DNA from: a virus
Strand: one strand, 5' to 3'
Virus genome (UHGV): UHGV-0163620
DNA: 20,711 nucleotides
The translations under genes were made by a program, and so were the position numbers. Under the pieces are notes generated by a model. That model was not told where the DNA came from. It saw nothing but the letters and a program-made list of their open reading frames with translations, and ran no database searches. Positions within the stretch are counted from its first letter, which is position 1. Every line of letters starts with the position of its first letter. Below are positions 4,528 to 18,431 of this stretch, piece by piece.

Positions 4528-4692
4528 AATATCCTCCAAATTCATATAGTTAGTGGGTTATTACCCCTCAATGACACGAACTGTAACTCTGCCAAACGAA
4601 CACATCCAGTGTTATTTTTCGCTTTTTAGTGAAATTTTTAATTTGCGTTGTTTTCTTGTTTTGGTGTATTTTATGGATATGGAGGCTATAAT

Positions 4693-5004
4693 ATGTTTAA
4701 CGTGATAACCCACCCTGCAGCACTGGATGAACTGCTTGAACTACCAGATGATTTGCGAGGTCGCATGACCAGATTAATTGAGCGACTGGAGAAAGAAGGC
4801 AACAAACTGAAGATGCCCCATAGCCGTGTAATAGGTGGAGGGCTTTTTGAACTACGAGTAGGGGATAAAAACATCGCAAGAACGCTGTACGCCTACGCGA
4901 CTGGTAACGAAATTTATCTATTGCATGCATTTGTAAAAAAGACACAGAAAACACCGGTGAAGGCTATCGAAATCGCCAGAACTCGCCTGAAGGAGATGAA
5001 CTGA
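4693..5004 (+). CDS. RelE/ParE-superfamily toxin, HigB-2 / Gp49-like (DUF891)
   Basis: About 103 aa with family-typical fold signature; toxin-first order; GGAGG 7 nt upstream of the ATG at 4693; stop overlaps the next start (TGATG). Confidence 0.7.
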   Translation: MFNVITHPAALDELLELPDDLRGRMTRLIERLEKEGNKLKMPHSRVIGGGLFELRVGDKNIARTLYAYATGNEIYLLHAFVKKTQKTPVKAIEIARTRLKEMN

Positions 5005-5291
5005 TGAAAGCGAAAGGCATCCCGTTTAACGAAGTAAAAGAAAAACTCCTCAACACTCCAGAAGCCGTCAAAGGATATGAAGAGGCCGACAAAGAGCTGG
5101 AGATGGTCGAAATGTTATACGAAATGAGGGAAAGAGCAGGTTTAACGAAATCAGCTCTGGCTGAACGAATGGGGTTGCGACCGTCAGCCATCAGCCGCCT
5201 GGAAAGCAATCCTTTAGGGGCAAGTATGAAAACTTTGGCTAAATATGCTCATGCCTGCGGCGCAACCATCGATATTCGCGCTGTTTATTAA
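5004..5291 (+). CDS. HTH XRE-family antitoxin (HigA-2-like)
   Basis: 95 aa with C-terminal helix-turn-helix; translationally coupled to the upstream toxin. Confidence 0.7.
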   Translation: MKAKGIPFNEVKEKLLNTPEAVKGYEEADKELEMVEMLYEMRERAGLTKSALAERMGLRPSAISRLESNPLGASMKTLAKYAHACGATIDIRAVY

Positions 5292-5333
5292 TTAGACTCT
5301 TTTACTACCCCGTCTAGAAGGGCGGGGTGTGCA

Positions 5334-5537
5334 TCAATGATGTGAACGCTCAACAGCGATAGTTTGCTGACAATGCTGGGCAATCTCTCGCGACATGTTG
5401 ATGAGTCGTGAAACCTCACCAATATGTAGGCTGGCTTCTGGAGAAGCCAGGGTGACGCTAACCAGATCCAGAACGGCGTCAATATCTCTTAAATTTGAAT
5501 CGAGTTGTTCAAGAGTTGATACGGCTGCTTCAGACAT
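5334..5537 (-). CDS. LexA-controlled small protein, 67 aa, candidate SOS-inducible antirepressor (AntC-like)
   Basis: ORF begins 39 bp downstream (minus strand) of a near-consensus LexA box; identity as an antirepressor is inferred from N15 biology recalled from memory. Confidence 0.5.
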   Translation of the reverse strand: MSEAAVSTLEQLDSNLRDIDAVLDLVSVTLASPEASLHIGEVSRLINMSREIAQHCQQTIAVERSHH

Positions 5538-5575
5538 TAAATCTCATACCATTTAACTAAAAAAGGTTATTTATA

Positions 5576-5591
5576 CTGTATAAAATTACAG
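5576..5591. promoter_or_regulatory. LexA (SOS) box CTGT-N8-ACAG
   Basis: TACTGTATAAAATTACAGGG at 5574-5593 matches CTGT(N8)ACAG with an AT-rich spacer; overlaps the candidate -10 region for the 5334..5537 gene. Confidence 0.7.
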
Positions 5592-5619
5592 GGTAAAACT
5601 CAAACTTTACGGTCAATTT

Positions 5620-5862
5620 TCAATGAATTAACTGCGTAAACTGCTGTGTGACCCGATACTTATGCTCTCTCCCTATGCCACGATCAACTTTCTCAAGAAG
5701 TCCAGTACGGACAGCAGAATCAAGCATCCTTTTAACAATTCTGCTATTTAACCCAACATCAAAAGAAAGCATCGAAGCGAAAACAAAACCATCACCACCA
5801 TCAGAAAAGCTCTTTTCGCTCCGTTTTCGTATCATTTCAAAAAGCAATGCCTTTTTATCCAT
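5620..5862 (-). CDS. hypothetical protein, 80 aa
   Basis: ORF with GGAGGG Shine-Dalgarno 4 nt upstream of the ATG at 5862; no family recognised. Confidence 0.5.
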   Translation of the reverse strand: MDKKALLFEMIRKRSEKSFSDGGDGFVFASMLSFDVGLNSRIVKRMLDSAVRTGLLEKVDRGIGREHKYRVTQQFTQLIH

Positions 5863-5871
5863 TTATCCCTC

Positions 5872-5885
5872 CGTGACCAGTCACG
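5872..5885. other. 14-bp palindrome CGTGACCAGTCACG (second dyad-site class), copy 1
   Basis: Identical 14-mer at 11927-11940 and its reverse complement at 16951-16964; abuts the Shine-Dalgarno of 5620..5862 and spans the stop of 5881..6207. Confidence 0.55.
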
Positions 5886-6207
5886 CTTTGAGCGCAAGTT
5901 TCAGCCTCGTGGTTGTAAGGTGGCATGACCCTTCGCCATCAAAAATGCATTCTGAAACAGGCATTTTTTGACCACATCGCGGGCAAGTAGTAGATAGCTG
6001 CTTCTGCAGCTCCTTATAGTTTTTCCTGATCAGCAAACCAATGACTTCGTTCTCCGAATATGGAACTCGCCCTGGTCTACGCAATACACAAATTTCCCCC
6101 AACATACGTAACTCGTCAGGTTCTAGAATCCAGTCCCGTCTTGATGTGCCTTCCTTCTTCAACCGTTCCCTGCGTCTCCTTTGCCGTTCTGCCGGTGTCA
6201 GCGCCAT
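5881..6207 (-). CDS. hypothetical protein, 108 aa, possible zinc-ribbon (CPRCG...C...C)
   Basis: ORF with GGAGG Shine-Dalgarno before the ATG at 6207; basic N-terminus and cysteine cluster. Confidence 0.5.
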   Translation of the reverse strand: MALTPAERQRRRRERLKKEGTSRRDWILEPDELRMLGEICVLRRPGRVPYSENEVIGLLIRKNYKELQKQLSTTCPRCGQKMPVSECIFDGEGSCHLTTTRLKLALKA

Positions 6208-6222
6208 AAATCCTCCTGAAAA

Positions 6223-6753
6223 TTACTTAACCCAATTAACTACACCGCCAGCGGCCACAACCGCCCTTTCACAGTCACGCTCATATCTCAAAGGTTGAAA
6301 TACACCATCAATAAAATATTTATCTCCACCAAACGCTGCAGGAAGTGAAACAGAAAACTGAATATGACCATCCGGAGTTACCGGAGAGTTGCCAGCCAGT
6401 CTACGCAACACAGCCTTAACGGCCTCAATACGGTCATCATCAACTTTTTCTACAATATTGGAATTTAAATACTTCGAAGCCTTGCTATGCCAATCGCTGG
6501 TTTTAGGGTCTTGTCCATCCATCAAACGCCAAGCTTCAGCGATTAACTCATAGCCAGTGACAGTGGCTTCCTGCGCATCACCAATAAGTCGTGTAATCTC
6601 TCTTTCAAGCCGACCGCCTAGCTCTGTTTTAGTGCAATGTTCTGACCAATCGCCAGCCTCAAGCAGCGCGAGAATGCTTAAAATATCGTCCAATAGAACG
6701 GTAGTATTATCGACTTCCTTCTGAAACTCACCGGCTACTGATTTATGCATCAT
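6223..6753 (-). CDS. hypothetical protein, 176 aa, with C-terminal PVTPDGHI motif
   Basis: ORF with tandem ATG start (MMH); shares a PVTPDG[HW]I motif with 6964..7698. Confidence 0.55.
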   Translation of the reverse strand: MMHKSVAGEFQKEVDNTTVLLDDILSILALLEAGDWSEHCTKTELGGRLEREITRLIGDAQEATVTGYELIAEAWRLMDGQDPKTSDWHSKASKYLNSNIVEKVDDDRIEAVKAVLRRLAGNSPVTPDGHIQFSVSLPAAFGGDKYFIDGVFQPLRYERDCERAVVAAGGVVNWVK

Positions 6754-9026: not shown

Positions 9027-9230
9027 CTATACCCAAATTTTCTGTTGATATGTTCTGGATGGTTTTGGCGTTCTTTCTGATTCAGGTAAATGAACATAAA
9101 CGCAATATCCATCACCTAAAAAATCAGAACGAACAACCAGAACTTTCTTACCACGCCGCCGATAAGTATCTGAAAGACGCTCTGCTTCATCATGCGTCAT
9201 CGGCCCCTGCTTAAATGGCGTTATTTTCAT
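9027..9230 (-). CDS. small hypothetical protein, 67 aa
   Basis: ATG at 9230; ORF-track start at 9254 is a GTG lying inside the palindrome at 9238-9253. Confidence 0.4.
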   Translation of the reverse strand: MKITPFKQGPMTHDEAERLSDTYRRRGKKVLVVRSDFLGDGYCVYVHLPESERTPKPSRTYQQKIWV

Positions 9231-9531
9231 TTTCTTGTGCGACCACGGTCGCACCCTCTCTGATTTCCAAGTAACGCTTAATCCAAAGATTTTCTATATG
9301 CTTATTACCTGGCTGATTTGATAAATACCAATCGGCAATTACAGACTGCTTATTACTATCTGGTCGTGTCCTGTAACCACAAGTTGGACACCAGATAACA
9401 TATTCATTTCTTACCCCCGAATACCTTAATTCTGGCTTCGACGGTTTCCTGAACATAACTTGTTTACAAAGACAGAATGGCACTTCCTGCCCGATGGCGT
9501 TTGATGATTTCACTGCGCTTCTCCGCCGCAT
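9211..9531 (-). CDS. zinc-ribbon protein, possibly Lar-like restriction alleviation family (tentative)
   Basis: CxC ... CxxC pattern (VPFCLCK ... WCPTCGYRTRP ... ADWYLSN) loosely resembling Lar/RalR small proteins as recalled from memory. Confidence 0.4.
   Translation of the reverse strand: MRRRSAVKSSNAIGQEVPFCLCKQVMFRKPSKPELRYSGVRNEYVIWCPTCGYRTRPDSNKQSVIADWYLSNQPGNKHIENLWIKRYLEIREGATVVAQENENNAI
9238..9253. other. sopC-like 16-bp inverted repeat TGCGACCACGGTCGCA, copy 3
   Basis: Identical to copy 1; 8 bp upstream of the ATG at 9230 and inside the 3' end of ORF 9211..9531. Confidence 0.6.
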
Positions 9532-10174
9532 TTAATAATGCAGTTCGATTTAAGCTCAGACATCGCGACTTAATTAAAAGCCAGCGTTCTTTATAATCTT
9601 GTCTCCAGCTATCAATAGATATATTCAGTAGAAAACTCAGATGCCTGTCCTGTTCTCTCTCATCAACTGCCTCAGCACACGTAAGTTCTGATTTAACCTG
9701 TTGTGCCGCGTAATAAATCAATTTCCGCATGGCTTTTTTCGTGGAGGCCTTCATTTTTTTAAAGCCGCCCCCCGAATGAGCAACCAGAAAATCAAGCCAT
9801 AACCACTGACAAACAATCACATCATTGTTGTAATCAGGCTTGCATCCGTAGCAATAATAAAGCCAGGCTGATTCCTCGTTATTCAACTGACCAATAGCCC
9901 TGCGCCAGCTGGCGCTCTGAAAATCAATATCAGTGAGCAACATTGATGATTGTTTAAATGTTTTCCCCTGGTGGAATCTAACCGGCTCAGCAGGAACGGA
10001 CACTTCGTATGAGTTATCATCCCCCACACTGATTGACCGGACTGGTTTATTGTTAAACCGTCCTGATCTACCGAGACGCATCTGCTCAAGCTGGACCTCC
10101 AGAATGCCACGCTGGCGATAATGAACATCAGCCAATGCCGTAGAGACGCAGCTGCGTATATACTCAAGCTCCAC
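9464..10174 (-). CDS. hypothetical protein, 236 aa, in the position of a Q-like late regulator (function unproven)
   Basis: Long ORF immediately downstream of the cro-like gene; N15 immB is recalled as cB-cro-Q; no antiterminator motif recognised; GTG start overlaps the cro-like stop. Confidence 0.45.
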   Translation of the reverse strand: MELEYIRSCVSTALADVHYRQRGILEVQLEQMRLGRSGRFNNKPVRSISVGDDNSYEVSVPAEPVRFHQGKTFKQSSMLLTDIDFQSASWRRAIGQLNNEESAWLYYCYGCKPDYNNDVIVCQWLWLDFLVAHSGGGFKKMKASTKKAMRKLIYYAAQQVKSELTCAEAVDEREQDRHLSFLLNISIDSWRQDYKERWLLIKSRCLSLNRTALLNAAEKRSEIIKRHRAGSAILSL

Positions 10175-10412: not shown

Positions 10413-10454
10413 TTAAAGCCAGCTATAATAAATAAATTTTATAGCCAGCTATAA
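10413..10454. promoter_or_regulatory. immunity-switch operators: two 16-bp dyad sites (TTAAAGCCAGCTATAA at 10413-10428; TTATAGCCAGCTATAA at 10439-10454)
   Basis: Two 7-2-7 inverted repeats with centres 26 bp apart in the AT-rich region between divergent cro-like and repressor genes. Confidence 0.55.
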
Positions 10455-10476: not shown

Positions 10477-11073
10477 ATGAAAACACGAGGCGAACGACTG
10501 AAAGCACGCCGTTTAGAGATGAAGCTGACGTTGCGAGAAGTTGCTGAGGCTGTCGATATCTCTATAGCAGGCGTCCAAAACTTAGAACGTGGCGACGTAA
10601 TGCCGTCACTGGAGATAGGTATTGCCCTGGCTAAGTGCTTACGCAAGCCAGTGCATTGGGTGCTATATGGGACAGAATATGACCCTGATCGCATTCCTGT
10701 TATTGGCACAACTGAAAGTGGGCCGGATGAAGAGTGGAAGCCGGGACAGGTTCCAAATACTGAGCGATTCCTGCCATTCATCAGCCAGCGCAATACTGTG
10801 TATGCGTTAACTATCAGCAATCTTACGCAGGGAAACTATCAGCCAGGCGATTTTCTCCTGGTCGATTCTGCGCTGGAACTGGTCCCCGGCGAGGATGTTC
10901 TGGTTCGTGATACTGCAGGAAATATCACTATCCAGCGCCTGGCCCGTTTTGATGATGAAAATTACTATCTGGATGGAACAAACTCACAACGCGCCATCTT
11001 CAGGAAAAGCGATCTTGAATTTGTTCACCAAATAGTCGGAACGATCAAATCATTCATGGTTGAGGGTAGATGA
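10477..11073 (+). CDS. cB: prophage repressor, CI/CB-like (N-terminal XRE HTH, C-terminal S24-peptidase-like domain)
   Basis: N-terminal HTH MKLTLREVAEAVDISIAGVQNLERG; C-terminal beta-rich domain alignable by eye to lambda CI but without an obvious GxSM serine motif or catalytic lysine. Confidence 0.75.
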   Translation: MKTRGERLKARRLEMKLTLREVAEAVDISIAGVQNLERGDVMPSLEIGIALAKCLRKPVHWVLYGTEYDPDRIPVIGTTESGPDEEWKPGQVPNTERFLPFISQRNTVYALTISNLTQGNYQPGDFLLVDSALELVPGEDVLVRDTAGNITIQRLARFDDENYYLDGTNSQRAIFRKSDLEFVHQIVGTIKSFMVEGR

Positions 11074-14300: not shown

Positions 14301-15302
14301 TTACCGGTTGAAGAAGGCACACTGAAATTCTATTTCGATGGCGCTCGAGACAAAATTCGCCGTTATGAAACGATGCTGCTTGATGAAGTCACAGCCCGTC
14401 GTTATGACCGTGAAGAAGCGGCTATCAATTTTACATACGCATATCGCCAGACCGGACAGTGGCAATATTTTGTGGTGACCGCGATGACACGCGAGCAGGC
14501 TGATGATGTATTCAAAGCGAAATTTCCGGGAATAATCGACTACAAGGTAAAAGCCACCCCAGCTGTTGAGGTCGGCATGCGCGGATTCTATGCGCTTAAA
14601 TCAGCAACTCTCCGGCAGTATTTTATCGACTGCGGTATCGACCCTGAAACTATGACTGGCGAAGCGACGCAGGAACGCCTTAAGTTCGCTCGAGATAATC
14701 TCATGACAGCAGAACGCCGTGACCTGTTGAATAACGTTCTGCGCATTGGTGGTTTTATGACACCAAAAGGGAAGCCTAAAGTGCCGGAAGCACTGTTTAA
14801 AAACATCTGCGACTCTCTCGGCCTAAAAACAGGAAAACGTCGCGGCAGAGATGGCGATAAGCGCCCGACATTGCGTTTTGTTGAGCCTGAGTCTGTAGCA
14901 TTTATGCTTGATATTCTTGCGCAACGTCAGGAGGACGGTATGACGTTGAAAGCTCGCAAGGCAGAAAAATCAACGACCGAAGTGGATCGCGATTTGTCAT
15001 TAAATATATATATGAATGGTGAAACGAGATCCACAAACACGGAGGAACAGGATCCCCCTCGTTCAGCTATATCACAGGCTTTGGCTGTATTGCCGGTGGC
15101 TGTTCCTGAGTCCTGGGCGATGAGTGCTCTGCCATCAGCCGAACTGGAATCTATCAGGGGGTGGTCAGTTGACAGCATCGCATACACGTTTGCAGCCCTT
15201 TATATGACTGAGTTTATGGATTTGCTGTCCGGTCATGAGATTAAGTTGCTGAAGGCTTTTATAGGCCCACGACATGCCAGCGATGAGTTTTGTGTAGTTT
15301 AG
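11319..15302 (+). CDS. repA: RepA-like multidomain replication protein (primase + helicase/origin-binding), 1327 aa
   Basis: Toprim-like segment (VTEGFATGAS ... ALDND); Walker A VRAGMGSGKST and Walker B FGFDEAT; size and architecture match N15 RepA as recalled. Confidence 0.85.
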   Translation: MTLNDFYADRFGSDPFSLIEAARDELTELAQMAGINWPACSDNIQLNPRGGVERYSSYNKTSPEALEKSLKGRVEIYSRLEHSKGIDYPFINFVHKGSDAGSWSGFSFLFSEYRREQQRNNATVVAQPEEERERIERQAEARRRREEQKRINDLKNNQMDHERLLGWLAFHSAWEHAPAEDGSWPYAIKKGIRDVFSSCDVRRVTSHDSAKWSRGSTTYMAIPLAHLDGRYDGRIVGWQRIDKQGGKYQTSAVTSGDFVGACFVIGELKGAQNIAVTEGFATGASIWLATKKDKRFDAVVVAVSANNMVHVVEQLVNMYPAAKITCALDNDRKSATEGKGNTGLRTGYEILSKFNDVRCVYPTFEDDPQMECSDFNDLHKLRGLRETARQLFATANRLKTGTDLLSLTLNRLKTIKRDNRRTFAKELLRAVDIGMLTCPVPNSPSDLFNMFCIVLREMGLENIYRATVKDHIARRLNKKCRIAQAPRSFSERITDPNKRPQHITYKRFETSVMTDDVLKYVQSLQGIVIVRAGMGSGKSTGLLRPLMHSSERGISVAHRVSLIGGLWEMMTEGKGVKADILHYQDPGYQEMAPYASKLTICINSIVKNCWQPLMRQHDYFGFDEATQGLRAVLSGRAMENPVAVFNTLIDALARTEQHPIMVDADANDLLVDLAELAMKRREELGLPAWLQIHVIELPVDVRNRETGEPIRVFYTEKDRIMTEVVKAVSDGEKIMLATDSSTFAEDVTATLRMHFPGKKFLCVNQKSKQDEEVDAFTSQPKVMVMKYDGLIYSPSISSGVSFEKKHFDRHFGMFCGEVVPSDAVQMLRRDRTAKEFIIGFDKARAKRETDPQKIERAFAQALLATAGMNGELTDVIFDGDRISMGVANTDFTRMKIKAAAIEASARNDYASNMICIMHSDGYKVSPLATDYAANDFGKELRKEARDIVWEQTLDLHLNTETPEESEREELLKKRALTLEEQAKLVRWDIENELKLPVEEGTLKFYFDGARDKIRRYETMLLDEVTARRYDREEAAINFTYAYRQTGQWQYFVVTAMTREQADDVFKAKFPGIIDYKVKATPAVEVGMRGFYALKSATLRQYFIDCGIDPETMTGEATQERLKFARDNLMTAERRDLLNNVLRIGGFMTPKGKPKVPEALFKNICDSLGLKTGKRRGRDGDKRPTLRFVEPESVAFMLDILAQRQEDGMTLKARKAEKSTTEVDRDLSLNIYMNGETRSTNTEEQDPPRSAISQALAVLPVAVPESWAMSALPSAELESIRGWSVDSIAYTFAALYMTEFMDLLSGHEIKLLKAFIGPRHASDEFCVV
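11681..11696. other. sopC-like 16-bp inverted repeat TGCGACCGTGGTCGCA, copy 4, inside repA coding sequence
   Basis: Exact 16-mer encoding residues A-T-V-V-A of RepA (codons 122-126). Confidence 0.6.
11927..11940. other. 14-bp palindrome CGTGACCAGTCACG, copy 2, inside repA coding sequence
   Basis: Exact copy of the 5872-5885 site; encodes R-V-T-S-H-D of RepA; 246 bp downstream of sopC-like copy 4. Confidence 0.55.
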
Positions 15303-15319
15303 AGGGTAGAAGCGTGGGA

Positions 15320-15586
15320 ATGATGCAAGAGTGCCTCGTTTTGATTGAAGGGTATGATCCGTATGTTGTTAACGTCAGCAGAATGGATACTGGCTATAGC
15401 GATTACAAAACTGGTCGAGAACTGCCGTTCACCATCATCAGGATGAATGGCTTTGGCGATGATGATGCTGTTTATTGCTGTATTGCCAGCGATAAAAACA
15501 TGGAAGACCGGACAGATGAAGCCCGTATGCTATTGAGGAAATATAAGGTAAAGCCGTTATCAGAGAATAACGCTGAGAGGGGTTAA
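15320..15586 (+). CDS. hypothetical protein, about 89 aa (start ambiguous)
   Basis: ORF immediately after repA; ORF-track start at 15290 overlaps the repA end, so the tandem ATGs at 15320/15323 are preferred. Confidence 0.45.
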   Translation: MMQECLVLIEGYDPYVVNVSRMDTGYSDYKTGRELPFTIIRMNGFGDDDAVYCCIASDKNMEDRTDEARMLLRKYKVKPLSENNAERG

Positions 15587-15588
15587 AA

Positions 15589-15984
15589 ATGGCAGTTCAA
15601 TCATACAAATACGAATCCCCTTTGGATAAGGGATACATTCGTATCAAGTTAAGTCGTTCTCAGCATAAGGCTATTTTTAAGGTAAGGAAAATTCGCATAT
15701 TGGATGCGTATGCGTATTACTACAACGGTGAAAATGTTGTTGTTGAACACTTTCTTGCACGATGGTTTGTAGCTCTGATTTTTGTCCCTCTCCTGTTAAT
15801 TGGTACTTTTGTGGATGGTTTTCCTAGTACATGGCGGGAGATAAAGAAAGGCTTATTCCCGCGTAAGTACGGCAGATTTTCGCAAGATAGCTGGCGAGTT
15901 ATACCTGGTAAACATTCTGTAGATGAGCAACCGATTGTTGATTACTGGTTGAAGCGTATGGCTGATGCTAAAAAAGTTGATTGA
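15589..15984 (+). CDS. hypothetical single-pass membrane protein, 131 aa
   Basis: Good Shine-Dalgarno (GAGAGGGG); hydrophobic helix WFVALIFVPLLLIGTFV; translationally adjacent to the previous ORF. Confidence 0.55.
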   Translation: MAVQSYKYESPLDKGYIRIKLSRSQHKAIFKVRKIRILDAYAYYYNGENVVVEHFLARWFVALIFVPLLLIGTFVDGFPSTWREIKKGLFPRKYGRFSQDSWRVIPGKHSVDEQPIVDYWLKRMADAKKVD

Positions 15985-17017: not shown

Positions 17018-17078
17018 CACCTCGCTGCGGTAAATCCCGCAGTCGGGACTTCGCAATCCTGGCAAAACGAAGCGCACA

Positions 17079-17100
17079 ACACGCGCCAGCGTGTTTTTTT
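17079..17100 (+). terminator. intrinsic terminator/attenuator in the immA-like leader
   Basis: 6-bp stem ACACGC/GCGTGT with 4-nt loop followed by seven T (17094-17100); about 77 nt downstream of the candidate start site. Confidence 0.55.
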
Positions 17101-17131
17101 GTGTGTACAGACCTGCGCATATCCGAATTAT

Positions 17132-17211
17132 GGTGGCTCAGGTGGGGCTGACTTCGGTCGGGCCGGTTTCTTCGTTTACCGGTATTGCGAACCCCGCCTG
17201 GGCTACCACCA
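17132..17211 (+). ncRNA. tRNA-like structured RNA, candidate c4/CA-type antisense regulator (RNase P substrate-like)
   Basis: 5' GGUGGCU pairs with 3' GGCUACC (7 bp, two G-U) followed by ACCA; internal GAC-UUCG-GUC and CCGGU-N10-ACCGG stem-loops; two blocks complementary to 17221-17240 downstream. Confidence 0.4.
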
Positions 17212-17266
17212 ATAAAGAGATTCGCAACTCTGGTGGTAGCACGACCAATAAAACGGAGTGCATACC

Positions 17267-17431
17267 ATGTTCAAATTCAAATTTGCGGCAGTCGTTCGCA
17301 CAGACAAAAAGTCCCACATTCATCATCTTTCCACTATCGCGTCATCTGAACGGGAAGCTCGTCGCCAGTTCGCCAGCCGGTTTGTCCTGGTATTATCTGC
17401 CCGTATTCCGGTGCGCGAGGTGGCTGCATGA
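17267..17431 (+). CDS. small ORF, 54 aa (Icd-like position in an immI/immA-type operon), not in ORF track
   Basis: ATG at 17267 with GGAG 8 nt upstream; stop TGA overlaps the next ATG (ATGA); function unknown. Confidence 0.4.
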   Translation: MFKFKFAAVVRTDKKSHIHHLSTIASSEREARRQFASRFVLVLSARIPVREVAA

Positions 17432-17661
17432 ATCAGGTAAAAATGAACACTGTTGGCCTGCTGGAATCGTTGGATGAACGTCTGGCTCAGGTCTATGCGC
17501 TCGTATCATCAGCCCATCGGACAGTCTCCAGTTGTGAGGCGTCGATTTACCTCTCAGAGGCTGGAAAACTTCTGCAGATTGCGTGTGAGTTAACGCATGA
17601 AGCACAGGGATATTCTGCGTCTCTCTCGTCGCACTTGCTGCGCGATAAGGAGGCTGAATGA
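17428..17661 (+). CDS. hypothetical protein, 77 aa, antirepressor-operon gene
   Basis: Translationally coupled on both sides (ATGA overlaps at 17428 and 17658). Confidence 0.5.
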   Translation: MNQVKMNTVGLLESLDERLAQVYALVSSAHRTVSSCEASIYLSEAGKLLQIACELTHEAQGYSASLSSHLLRDKEAE

Positions 17662-18431
17662 GCGCGTTAGCAGTCTTTTCCTTTCAGGAAGAGCATCAGG
17701 TACGTGTAGTGATGATTAACGGCGATCCGTGGTTTGTGGCGAATGATATTTGCAATGCTTTAAGCATCCAGAATGTCACACAAGCTATCGCTAGATTAGA
17801 TGAAGATGAGCGATCTATGTTTAACATAGGCCGTCAAGGTCAAGCCAATATCATCAGCGAATCAGGTCTTTACACCCTCATTCTCCGCTGCCGTGACGCG
17901 GTGAAGCAAGGCACAACAGCTTGGCGGTTTCGCAAATGGGTAACGAACGAAGTCTTGCCCTCTATTCGCAAAAATGGAGAGTACGTTTACATCGAGCCTG
18001 AGCCAATGCGAGCAGCGGAGCCGTTGAACGGGAGGCAGAAAGCGTATCTGCGAGGGCTGATTAACGATATAGCACAAAGTTTTCGGTGCCGAAATGCCTG
18101 GATCAGTGGAATATGGTTGGCTTTGCGTCGGGCGTGTCGTAATCCATCCCCGAACCCCATAACGGTTGATGATTTGCCAGCAATTGCGGCAGAACTGCGC
18201 AGGATTTTGACGGCTGCTGAGTCGGCATTGAGGAACATGCGCACGTATGAACGGGAGTTGTTGCGTGATGTTGTTCGTGGGGGTAGGCGGAGTATGTCGT
18301 GTGGTGATTTGCCCATCATCGATATCAACTCTGATCTGGAAAAGGCGTTACCCGCACATTTTGAACTGGCAGTTCAAAAACTTGAGCAGCTATCCGCGCA
18401 GTTAAAGCCAGCAGAAATCACTAATAAATAG
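17658..18431 (+). CDS. antirepressor with Bro-N domain
   Basis: N-terminal Bro-N pattern: FSFQEEHQVRVVMINGDPWFVANDICNALSI ... GLYTLI ... FRKWVTNEVLPSIRKNG. Confidence 0.8.
   Translation: MSALAVFSFQEEHQVRVVMINGDPWFVANDICNALSIQNVTQAIARLDEDERSMFNIGRQGQANIISESGLYTLILRCRDAVKQGTTAWRFRKWVTNEVLPSIRKNGEYVYIEPEPMRAAEPLNGRQKAYLRGLINDIAQSFRCRNAWISGIWLALRRACRNPSPNPITVDDLPAIAAELRRILTAAESALRNMRTYERELLRDVVRGGRRSMSCGDLPIIDINSDLEKALPAHFELAVQKLEQLSAQLKPAEITNK

What the first reader, a model, noticed from the sequence alone, without database searches (positions are those of the whole stretch)
5334..5591. Near-consensus LexA box in front of a 67-aa gene, paired with a repressor that seems to lack autocleavage residues
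TACTGTATAAAATTACAGGG (5574-5593) sits in the promoter region of a small minus-strand ORF. The CB-like repressor (10477..11073) has an S24-like C-terminal domain in which I cannot find the usual GxSM serine or the catalytic lysine. That would make induction depend on an SOS-induced antirepressor, as reported for N15 AntC (from memory), rather than on RecA-stimulated repressor cleavage.
Basis: partly seen in the sequence, partly recalled or inferred. Interest (0 to 1): 0.65.

Follow-up and report, generated by a model that had tools for sequence, protein, structure and literature searches.

The report
N15-type SOS antirepressor AntC orthologue
This is the known phage N15 induction switch, found in a close relative: a small antirepressor gene kept silent by the host LexA protein until DNA damage, paired with a prophage repressor that cannot cut itself. 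It is correctly spotted but ordinary.

Summary
The window is a Ravinvirus (N15-like linear plasmid prophage), 99% identical to Escherichia phages PhiR46_1 and YDC107_1. TACTGTATAAAATTACAGGG (5574-5593) holds the only perfect CTGT-N8-ACAG in the window. It sits 37-56 nt upstream of the 67-aa ORF 5334-5537(-) and overlaps its likely -10 element. That ORF is 55.6% identical to an unannotated N15 ORF in the same position (between gp47 and the gp48/gp49 toxin-antitoxin pair), which has its own LexA box; this matches the published antC. All 54 related loci I fetched carry a perfect box at -54 to -58. The repressor (10477-11073) is 77.8% identical to N15 CB. Its model keeps the LexA/lambda-CI S24 fold. 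It has Gln153 in place of the catalytic Lys and no conserved Ser. Published work reports the same residues missing from N15 and phiKO2 CB and shows N15 repressor is not proteolysed under SOS. Extras: a C4-RNA-controlled paralogue (AntA, immA locus) at 17428-17661, and a homologous antA in PY54 behind a LexA-boxed dinI. Novelty: already known. Interest is low; the main value is annotation.

The parts
5574..5593 (-). LexA (SOS) box, 20-mer TACTGTATAAAATTACAGGG. The palindromic core CTGT-N8-ACAG is at 5576-5591.
   Evidence: Only perfect core in the window. 15/20 match to consensus, equal to lexA operator 1. Conserved at -54 to -58 in 54 of 54 related loci.
5575..5603 (-). Putative sigma-70 promoter of the antC-like gene: -35 TTGAGT (5603-5598), 17-bp spacer, -10 TACAGT (5580-5575). 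The LexA box covers the spacer and the -10.
   Evidence: Read from the sequence. The TTTG(A/C)N element and its 17-bp spacing to TACAGT are conserved across diverged relatives. It scores only 8/12, below the scan tool's 9/12 threshold, so the tool did not report it. An alternative is -35 TTTACC / 16 bp / -10 TATAAA (5575-5570). The transcription start is not determined here.
5334..5537 (-). antC orthologue: 67-aa antirepressor predicted to be a two-helix hairpin (coordinates include the stop codon).
   Evidence: 55.6% identity to the unannotated N15 ORF at 39619-39807. Same gene order as N15 and phiKO2. PHROG 6301 at E=1.8e-35 and PHROG 10889 'anti-repressor' at E=6.9e-8. AlphaFold2 pLDDT 94, helices 3-31 and 33-66.
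10477..11073 (+). cB prophage repressor: HTH_3 DNA-binding domain plus an S24-like C-terminal domain without the Ser/Lys catalytic dyad (Gln153 at the Lys position). Presumed target of AntC.
   Evidence: 77.8% identity to N15 CB gp38. Pfam domains. Alignments to LexA, lambda CI and UmuD. Model pLDDT 87.9 with top PDB matches lambda CI, LexA and UmuD.
10413..10454 (.). CB operators (OR) in the cB-cro intergenic region: TTAAAGCCAGCTATAA (10413-10428) and TTATAGCCAGCTATAA (10439-10454).
   Evidence: The repeat is significant: 5 matches counting both strands (4 at these two sites, 1 at 15480-15495, 3 mismatches), with 0.20 expected. The second site is identical to a site inside N15's annotated CB operator region. 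N15/phiKO2 operators are described in PMC4997575.
10164..10412 (-). cro (P22_Cro family), first gene of the lytic operon that CB represses.
   Evidence: Pfam P22_Cro at E=2.5e-22. Gene order matches N15 gene 39.
9464..10174 (-). Q-like late antiterminator, downstream of cro in the derepressed operon.
   Evidence: Pfam Phage_antiter_Q at E=4e-84.
17428..17661 (+). antA paralogue (77 aa) in the immA anti-immunity operon. It is a second, LexA-independent copy of the same antirepressor family.
   Evidence: 31% identity to the 67-aa protein, E=1e-7. Same PHROGs 6301 and 10889. 62.9% identity to N15 gene 31. No LexA box nearby.
17126..17213 (+). C4-type antisense RNA (the N15 CA RNA equivalent) that controls the immA operon.
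   Evidence: Rfam RF01695, 82.3 bits against a gathering score of 45, E=3.9e-15.

Best explanation
The region encodes the antC arm of the N15-type lysis-lysogeny switch.

In a lysogen, host LexA dimers bind the SOS box at 5574-5593. The box overlaps the -10 and spacer of the promoter of the 67-aa gene, so the gene is kept silent. The prophage repressor CB (10477-11073) holds the cro-Q lytic operon off at the OR operators (10413-10454). By analogy with N15, it also limits repA.

CB keeps the LexA/CI-type C-terminal fold but has lost the catalytic Ser-Lys dyad (Gln153 replaces the Lys), so activated RecA cannot make it cut itself. Instead, DNA damage leads to cleavage of LexA. The antC promoter is then derepressed, and the two-helix hairpin protein AntC accumulates and binds CB without cutting it. 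CB leaves its operators, and Cro, Q and the late genes are expressed.

Shown here: the box, its position, its conservation, the orthology, the retained fold and the loss of the dyad. Taken from N15 literature: LexA control, AntC acting on the repressor, and the repressor not being cleaved. Inferred: that the same steps operate in this phage, and that AntC contacts CB directly.
For: - **Identity of the phage:** 99% identical to Ravinvirus phages PhiR46_1 and YDC107_1.
- **Orthology:** 55.6% identity to an N15 ORF at 39619-39807, in the same gene order gp46-gp47-[ORF]-gp48/gp49.
- **N15 assignment:** N15 has only two LexA palindromes with AT-rich spacers. One is in front of the umuD-like gene 26 and one is in front of this ORF, which identifies it as the SOS-regulon antirepressor antC.
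- **Box:** unique in the window and present in 54 of 54 related loci at a fixed distance, while flanking bases vary.
- **Family function:** PHROG 10889 'anti-repressor'. It is a paralogue of the immA antA gene and a homologue of PY54 antA, which is annotated anti-repressor.
- **Repressor:** 77.8% identical to N15 CB. S24 fold retained. LexA Lys156 column across 46 family members: Gln 29, Tyr 5, Leu 4, Gly 4, Phe 2, Met 1, Lys 1. Only one distant member (P0067) keeps GDSM...VKRL.
- **No constraint at the 'nucleophile' column:** Thr117 is Ala in a 99%-identical CB.
- **Literature:** PMC4488713, PMC3121763, PMC4997575, PMC10432266, PMC11652158.
Against: - Nothing was measured for this phage: no LexA binding, no transcription start site, no AntC-CB interaction.
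- The primary AntC paper (Mardanov & Ravin 2007, PMC1951935) is not in the library. The coordinates of N15 antC were therefore deduced from the LexA box, the paralogy and secondary citations, not read from the paper.
- The promoter hexamers are weak (8/12) and the scan tool reported no promoter.
- The gene follows gp47 on the same strand after only 82 bp, so read-through from the early-right operon could also express it after induction has begun.
- AntC is only 55.6% identical to N15 AntC, so changed specificity cannot be ruled out.
Confidence: 0.9

Rival explanations
1. The LexA-like palindrome is a chance AT-rich match with no regulatory role. The small gene would then be expressed only by read-through from the upstream early operon (Q...gp46-gp47).
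For: 14 of 100 shuffles of the window give at least one CTGT-N8-ACAG. The promoter scan finds no sigma-70 promoter at its threshold. The gene lies 82 bp downstream of gp47 on the same strand.
Against: 54 of 54 related loci, with 26 distinct upstream sequences and proteins down to 49% identity, keep a perfect core at -54 to -58 while neighbouring bases vary. The same arrangement is found in N15, whose antirepressor is reported to belong to the SOS regulon (PMC3121763, PMC11652158). The box matches the consensus as well as lexA's own operator does.
Confidence: 0.03
2. The 67-aa protein is SOS-induced but is not an antirepressor of CB. It could be a DinI/PsiB-like modulator of RecA or LexA, a cell-division inhibitor, or a toxin-like small protein linked to the neighbouring gp49/HTH toxin-antitoxin pair.
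For: No Pfam or NCBIfam family matches it and its fold has no PDB match. It lies next to a convergent Gp49 (HigB-like)/HTH module. In PY54 the homologue follows a dinI gene.
Against: It is homologous to three genes named as antirepressors: N15 antC by position and LexA box, N15/window antA in immA, and PY54 antA. It also matches PHROG 10889 'anti-repressor'. It is a separate gene from dinI in PY54 and has no DinI domain. [quoted passage not shown]
Confidence: 0.05
3. CB is still inactivated by RecA-stimulated self-cleavage using non-canonical residues (for example Thr117 or Ser114 as nucleophile). AntC would then be only an accessory.
For: The S24 fold is retained. Thr117 or Ser114 lies near the nucleophile position, and a Ser81-Gly82 pair aligns with LexA Ala84-Gly85.
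Against: The general-base Lys is Gln153 here and a non-Lys residue in 45 of 46 family members. Ser114 and Thr117 are not conserved: N15 has Gly and Ile, and a 99%-identical CB has Ala117. N15 repressor showed no proteolysis under ciprofloxacin, whereas VP882 cI was cleaved (PMC10432266, Fig. 1b). LexA S119A and K156A are the classic non-cleavable mutants (cited in PMC4997575).
Confidence: 0.02

Closest known systems
Phage N15 AntC (Mardanov & Ravin 2007, J Bacteriol 189:6333) acting on N15 CB
   Same: Same genus (Ravinvirus). Same position between gp47 and the gp48/gp49 toxin-antitoxin pair. LexA box at the same distance upstream. Small protein of about 70 aa with the conserved DxDAVLDxVS...SPEASLH core. 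Partner repressor is 77.8% identical and has the same Lys-to-Gln loss.
   Different: The protein is only 55.6% identical. The box spacer differs (ATAAAATT vs, in the same orientation, ATATAAAC in N15). This copy has never been tested, and it is annotated 'hypothetical protein' or mislabelled 'putative gp47'.
N15 AntA (gene 31) of the immA anti-immunity operon, controlled by the CA (C4-type) RNA (Ravin et al. 1999)
   Same: Same protein family: 31% identity within this window, the same PHROGs, and the same hairpin-turn motif S-x-EAS. Presumably the same target, CB.
   Different: The input differs: a C4 antisense RNA in an icd-antA-antB operon between repA and telN, with no LexA box. The window has its own antA at 17428-17661, so the 67-aa gene is the antC copy and not the antA copy.
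Yersinia phage PY54 antA (annotated anti-repressor, 87 aa)
   Same: Homologous (41.7% identity, E=2e-11). It lies just before a convergent toxin-antitoxin gene. It is SOS-linked through a LexA box, and PY54 CI has Ala at the LexA Ser119 column.
   Different: The LexA box is in front of a dinI homologue that precedes antA, so it is probably a dinI-antA operon. There is no box directly upstream of antA. PY54 CI keeps the Lys.
Coliphage 186 Tum and Salmonella Gifsy GfoA/GftA (LexA-controlled antirepressors)
   Same: Same logic: the repressor is not cleaved, a small antirepressor gene outside the immunity region is under direct LexA control, and the antirepressor binds the repressor without cutting it (PMC3121763).
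   Different: No sequence relationship was detected. AntC has no Pfam hit, including no DinI domain. Tum is 146 aa with a DinI-like half (PMC3121763). The repressor families also differ.
Lambda CI / LexA / UmuD (S24 self-cleaving family)
   Same: CB has an N-terminal HTH plus a C-terminal beta-domain with the S24 fold, and a sub-threshold Pfam S24 match.
   Different: The catalytic Ser and Lys are absent. CB is inactivated by an antirepressor and not by RecA-stimulated self-cleavage.
Qtip / smORF small-protein antirepressors of Vibrio telomere phages (Silpe et al. 2023, PMC10432266)
   Same: Small proteins of linear plasmid-like phages that inactivate cI without proteolysis.
   Different: Those are driven by phage transcription factors or quorum-sensing inputs, are SOS-independent, and act on repressors that can still self-cleave. 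Here the input is LexA and the repressor cannot self-cleave. Homology was not tested.

Membership tests
N15 AntC-type LexA-controlled antirepressor | Sequence homology to N15 AntC | tested here: met
   tblastn gives 55.6% identity over 94% of the query, E=7e-16, to N15 39619-39807. The alignment has 26 invariant columns across six phages.
N15 AntC-type LexA-controlled antirepressor | A separate locus outside immB and immA, between gp47 and the gp48/gp49 toxin-antitoxin pair | tested here: met
   Same gene order in the window, YDC107_1, N15, phiKO2 and KpLi5. PMC4488713 describes antC as a separate gene outside immA and immB.
N15 AntC-type LexA-controlled antirepressor | LexA box overlapping the gene's promoter | tested here: met
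   Box at 5574-5593 overlaps the candidate -10 at 5575-5580. Conserved in 54 of 54 loci. The promoter itself is inferred and not mapped.
N15 AntC-type LexA-controlled antirepressor | LexA binds the site, and transcription is derepressed by DNA damage | not testable with these tools
   Needs EMSA or reporter assays. Reported for N15 only (PMC3121763, PMC11652158, citing Mardanov & Ravin 2007).
N15 AntC-type LexA-controlled antirepressor | The protein binds and inactivates the CB repressor | not testable with these tools
   No complex modelling or binding assay is available here. [quoted passage not shown]
E. coli-type SOS (LexA) box | CTGT-N8-ACAG palindrome with an AT-rich spacer | tested here: met
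   CTGTATAAAATTACAG, spacer 8/8 A/T. 15/20 to the consensus, against 15/20 and 14/20 for lexA's own operators. The heterology index was not computed because no site table was available.
S24 (LexA / lambda CI / UmuD) self-cleaving repressors, applied to CB | S24 beta-fold in the C-terminal domain | tested here: met
   AlphaFold2 model pLDDT 87.9. Top Foldseek PDB hits are lambda repressor, LexA and UmuD at probability 1.00. Pfam S24 scores 21.3 bits, just under the 23.3 cutoff.
S24 (LexA / lambda CI / UmuD) self-cleaving repressors, applied to CB | Catalytic Ser (LexA S119) in a G-x-S-M motif | tested here: not met
   The column holds Thr117 (L-INS-i), Asn115 (phmmer) or a gap. The motif reads I-S-N-L-T-Q. 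Nearby Ser/Thr residues are not conserved (N15 has G-N-Q-I; Ala117 in a 99%-identical CB).
S24 (LexA / lambda CI / UmuD) self-cleaving repressors, applied to CB | General-base Lys (LexA K156) | tested here: not met
   Gln153 in ITIQRL, against VTVKRL, FTFKKL and FTVKKL, in all alignments. 45 of 46 family members lack Lys.
S24 (LexA / lambda CI / UmuD) self-cleaving repressors, applied to CB | Ala-Gly (or Cys-Gly) cleavage site | tested here: inconclusive
   Ser81-Gly82 aligns with LexA Ala84-Gly85 in one alignment but not in another. PMC4997575 reports that no RecA cleavage site was detected in N15 and phiKO2 CB.
S24 (LexA / lambda CI / UmuD) self-cleaving repressors, applied to CB | RecA-stimulated self-cleavage | not testable with these tools
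   For the 77.8%-identical N15 repressor, no proteolysis was seen under ciprofloxacin (PMC10432266, Fig. 1b).
186 Tum-type antirepressor | Sequence homology, including the DinI-like C-terminal half | tested here: not met
   No Pfam family, DinI included, matches the 67-aa protein at E<=0.1. At 67 aa it is much shorter than Tum (146 aa). The resemblance is functional only.

The most novel reading that the evidence does not exclude
AntC, AntA and PY54 'AntA' may form one unrecognised family of two-helix hairpin antirepressors (PHROGs 6301 and 10889; no Pfam or NCBIfam model; 'hypothetical protein' in every database). Telomere phages would have wired this family repeatedly to different inputs: a LexA box directly on the promoter, a LexA-boxed dinI operon, or a C4 antisense RNA. 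One non-cleavable repressor would then have two independent off-switches. In addition, AntC can differ by 24% between phages whose CB proteins are 99% identical, and by 45% from N15 AntC. That rapid divergence could set whether co-resident N15-like plasmid prophages induce each other, as seen for Gifsy phages. Whether the AntA/AntC paralogy was already noted in the 2007 paper could not be checked.
Probability: 0.2. Interest if true: 0.35.

Novelty: already known. Interest (0 to 1): 0.12.

Why it matters
The scientific value is small, because this is a textbook-style example of SOS induction through an antirepressor that was published for N15 in 2007.

The practical value is in annotation. The gene is unannotated in the N15 reference genome. 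It is mislabelled 'putative gp47' in YDC107_1 and called 'hypothetical protein' in RefSeq E. coli plasmids and in every protein database hit. Its repressor is sometimes auto-named 'LexA family' or 'S24 family peptidase', which wrongly implies self-cleavage. Tools that classify prophages as SOS-dependent from repressor chemistry alone would misread these elements. The LexA box in front of antC is the feature that makes N15-like plasmid prophages SOS-inducible.

Tried and rejected
- **Primary paper:** Mardanov & Ravin 2007 could not be read by PMC id or PubMed id. N15 antC coordinates were therefore deduced from a whole-genome LexA-box scan of N15 plus paralogy.
- **Promoter and terminator scan of 5150-5950:** nothing found at the tool's thresholds. 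The promoter was assigned by eye and by conservation (8/12 match).
- **Hairpin at about 5306-5329:** it lies between the convergent antC and antitoxin genes. It folds no better than shuffled sequence (z=-1.32) and lacks a T-run, so it is not claimed as a terminator.
- **Heterology index:** I looked for a published table of LexA sites and found none with sequences. I used simple consensus counts benchmarked against lexA's own operators instead.
- **Fold search on the AntC hairpin:** Foldseek against PDB returned zero matches, which is uninformative for a short helical hairpin.
- **Sequence search of CB against PDB:** only HTH domains were significant, with a weak UmuD hit (E about 0.5). The fold search was needed to establish the S24 fold.
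- **First word-based protein search with the single AntC sequence:** found only close relatives. A profile search was needed.
- **One-mismatch LexA cores elsewhere in the window:** 8 found against 6.07 expected, so they are dismissed as chance.
- **Thr117 or Ser114 as an alternative nucleophile:** considered and rejected on conservation.

Full report
**What the window is.** Megablast of 4900-6300 finds Escherichia phages PhiR46_1 and YDC107_1 (genus Ravinvirus) at 99% identity. Their annotation and the window's ORFs show the N15 layout: repA (1327 aa), cB, cro, Q, an early-right operon, a gp49/gp48 toxin-antitoxin pair, methylase, lysis genes and protelomerase. The same 351-bp locus occurs in 16 of 5,426 complete E. 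coli genomes. It is always on plasmid records of about 46-75 kb, which is the linear plasmid-prophage state.

**Checking the observation.** The 20-mer TACTGTATAAAATTACAGGG is at 5574-5593. Its core CTGTATAAAATTACAG (5576-5591) is the only perfect CTGT-N8-ACAG in the window, with 0.16 expected by chance. Cores with one mismatch are at chance level, 8 found against 6.07 expected. The box matches the LexA consensus at 15 of 20 positions, the same as E. coli lexA operator 1 and better than operator 2 at 14/20. On the minus strand the box lies 37-56 nt upstream of the ATG at 5537 of a 67-aa ORF. A single match would not be compelling, since 14% of shuffles give one, but conservation settles it. In N15, MStein-2023a, KpLi5 and a metagenomic relative the box sits at -54 to -58, and phiKO2 has one core mismatch. 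In a wider set of 54 loci (2 bacterial genomes and 52 IMG/VR contigs; 26 distinct upstream sequences; encoded proteins 49-100% identical) every locus has a perfect core at -54 to -58 while flanking bases vary.

**Promoter.** A TTTG(A/C)N element is conserved 17 bp upstream of TACAGT. That gives a plausible promoter with -35 TTGAGT (5603-5598) and -10 TACAGT (5580-5575), and the LexA box lies over the spacer and the -10. The match is weak (8/12), so the scan tool did not report it. The transcription start is not known.

**What the 67-aa gene is.** tblastn finds a 55.6%-identical ORF in N15 at 39619-39807. It is unannotated and lies between gene 47 and gene 48. Directly upstream of it is CCCTGTGTTTATATACAGTA. 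A scan of the whole N15 genome finds three perfect cores. One has a GC-rich spacer and lies inside the tape-measure gene, so it is chance. One is in front of the umuD-like gene 26. The third is in front of this ORF. [quoted passage not shown] The N15 ORF is therefore antC, and the window ORF is its orthologue.

The primary paper (Mardanov & Ravin 2007) is not held, so this assignment is deduced and not read from the source. Independent support comes from PHROGs, where the protein matches PHROG 6301 (E=1.8e-35) and PHROG 10889, annotated 'anti-repressor' (E=6.9e-8). It has no Pfam or NCBIfam family. All 41 database relatives found with a profile are unnamed or called 'hypothetical protein'. AlphaFold2 predicts a two-helix hairpin (helices 3-31 and 33-66, pLDDT 94), with the invariant SPEASLH motif at the turn. 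Foldseek finds no PDB match.

**The repressor.** ORF 10477-11073 is 77.8% identical to N15 CB, gp38. Pfam gives HTH_3 (E=3.3e-11) and a Peptidase_S24 match just below threshold (21.3 vs 23.3 bits). The AlphaFold2 model (pLDDT 87.9) has lambda repressor, a lambda-186 hybrid, LexA and UmuD as its best PDB matches at probability 1.00, so the S24-type fold is retained. In alignments with E. coli LexA and lambda CI (sequences taken from the records) and with UmuD, LexA Lys156 always aligns with Gln153: ITIQRL against VTVKRL, FTFKKL and FTVKKL. The Ser119 column holds Thr117, Asn115 or a gap depending on the aligner, and never Ser. The G-x-S-M motif reads I-S-N-L-T-Q.

Across 46 full-length family members the Lys column is Gln 29, Tyr 5, Leu 4, Gly 4, Phe 2, Met 1 and Lys 1. 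Only P0067, at 42% identity, keeps GDSM...VKRL. The dyad was therefore lost in the ancestor of this clade. Thr117 is not constrained: a CB that is 197/198 identical differs only by T117A, and the cluster P0014, with 156 member sequences, also has Ala there.

Both points are already published. Hammerl et al. 2016 state that the RecA cleavage site and the essential Ser and Lys 'were not detected in CB of phiKO2 and N15' (PMC4997575). Silpe et al. 2023 showed by in-gel labelling that the N15 repressor is non-proteolytic under ciprofloxacin, and noted that 210 of 271 telomere-phage loci are N15-like (PMC10432266).

**The rest of the circuit.** The cB-cro intergenic region has TTAAAGCCAGCTATAA (10413-10428) and TTATAGCCAGCTATAA (10439-10454). 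The pattern search gives 5 matches counting both strands (4 at these two sites, plus a 3-mismatch one at 15480-15495), with 0.20 expected. The second site is identical to a site inside N15's annotated CB operator region. Cro (P22_Cro family) and Q follow on the minus strand.

**Most likely mechanism.** LexA occupies the box and blocks the antC promoter. DNA damage activates RecA and LexA cleaves itself. AntC is then made and neutralises CB without cutting it, and cro, Q and the late genes are expressed. The sequence features, orthology, fold and dyad loss are shown here. LexA control, AntC acting on CB, and CB not being cleaved are shown in the literature for N15 only. Transfer to this phage, and direct AntC-CB contact, are inferred. 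Confidence is 0.9.

**Rivals.**
- A chance palindrome is excluded by the 54-of-54 conservation.
- A different function for the small protein is unlikely, because it is homologous to three genes named as antirepressors.
- Residual self-cleavage by CB is contradicted by the Lys-to-Gln change, the unconstrained Thr117, and the N15 experiment.

**Seen in passing.** The window carries a paralogue of the 67-aa protein at 17428-17661 (77 aa, 31% identity, E=1e-7, same PHROGs). It is the orthologue of N15 gene 31 in the immA operon. It is flanked by an icd-position ORF and a Bro-N 'Ant' protein. A C4 antisense RNA (Rfam, 82.3 bits) and an isrK-like RNA lie upstream. PY54, which is said to have antA but no antB (PMC4488713), annotates an 87-aa 'antA anti-repressor'. 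That protein is 41.7% identical to the window's AntC-like protein and about 35% identical to the AntA-like one. This supports calling the small protein AntA and shows that all three belong to one family.

PY54 antA lies behind a dinI homologue with the LexA box GACTGTATACATATACAGTA and before a convergent HicB gene. PY54 CI has Ala in the Ser119 column. Separately, a phage with a 99%-identical CB has an AntC only 76% identical to the window's, so AntC evolves much faster than its presumed target.

**Comparison and novelty.** The feature passes every computable membership test for the N15 AntC system and fails the catalytic tests for self-cleaving S24 repressors, exactly as N15 CB does. It works like 186 Tum and Gifsy GfoA/GftA but shows no sequence relationship to them. 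This is the known system in a congeneric phage, so novelty is 'already known' and interest is low (0.12). The remaining value is in annotation: antC is missing from the N15 reference annotation and is 'hypothetical' everywhere else. The AntA/AntC/PY54-AntA family also has no Pfam or NCBIfam model.

Noticed in passing
window 17428-17661 (+), with 17658-18431 (+) and 17268-17477 (+): There is a second copy of the same small-antirepressor family: 77 aa, 31% identical to the 67-aa protein, with the same PHROGs 6301 and 10889. It is the orthologue of N15 gene 31 (AntA) and lies in an immA-type operon, between an icd-position ORF and a Bro-N 'Ant' protein (AntB). The phage therefore has two paralogous antirepressors with different inputs.
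   Followed up: yes
window 17024-17099 and 17126-17213 (+): Rfam finds a C4 antisense RNA (RF01695, 82.3 bits) and, just upstream, an isrK-like RNA (RF01394, 52.8 bits), ahead of the immA operon. The Pfam Phage_ASH match on ORF 17091-17477 (residues 6-61, about 17106-17273) coincides with the C4 RNA gene. That protein-family hit is therefore probably a translated RNA gene, as with N15 'cA', which was first annotated as a protein.
   Followed up: partly
L070 (Yersinia phage PY54, NC_005069) 15276-15295, 15316-15552, 15602-15865: PY54's annotated antA (87 aa) is homologous to the window's AntC-like protein (41.7% identity). It follows a dinI homologue whose promoter region carries a near-perfect LexA box, GACTGTATACATATACAGTA. 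This looks like a dinI-antA SOS operon and recalls the antirepressor-DinI fusion in 186 Tum. PY54 CI has Ala at the LexA Ser119 column but keeps the Lys.
   Followed up: partly
L071 4859-5452 and 10016-10216 (Logan SRR8448318 contig): A related phage has a CB that is 197/198 identical to the window's. The only change is T117A, at the 'nucleophile' column. Its AntC is only 76% identical. AntC therefore diverges much faster than CB, which may bear on cross-induction specificity.
   Followed up: partly
window 4648-5004 (+) and 5004-5291 (+): A Gp49 (HigB/RelE-like) toxin and an HTH_3 antitoxin pair converge on the antC-like gene, as in N15 (genes 49 and 48), phiKO2 and KpLi5. PY54 has a HicB-type gene at the same place. 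The hairpin between the convergent genes (about 5306-5329) folds no better than shuffled sequence (z=-1.32).
   Followed up: partly
L015 (N15, NC_001901) 21658-21677 and 39619-39807: N15's umuD-like gene 26 has its own strong LexA box, TACTGTATAAAAAAACAGTT, so N15 carries two SOS-regulon promoters. The antC ORF is not annotated in the N15 reference record.
   Followed up: partly
window 9211-9531 (-): An ORF for a Lar-like restriction-alleviation protein (PHROG 6795, E=1.5e-45) lies just downstream of Q in the early-right operon. The annotated N15 stretch from Q to gene 47 lists no Lar-like product there; its first gene after Q is an exonuclease-subunit gene. The early-right operon content therefore differs between the two phages.
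   Followed up: no
protein database hits P0042, P0063, P0073; N15 gene 38 RefSeq name: CB-family proteins that lack the dyad are auto-named 'S24 family peptidase' or 'LexA family transcriptional regulator' in public records. These names wrongly suggest that the proteins can self-cleave.
   Followed up: no
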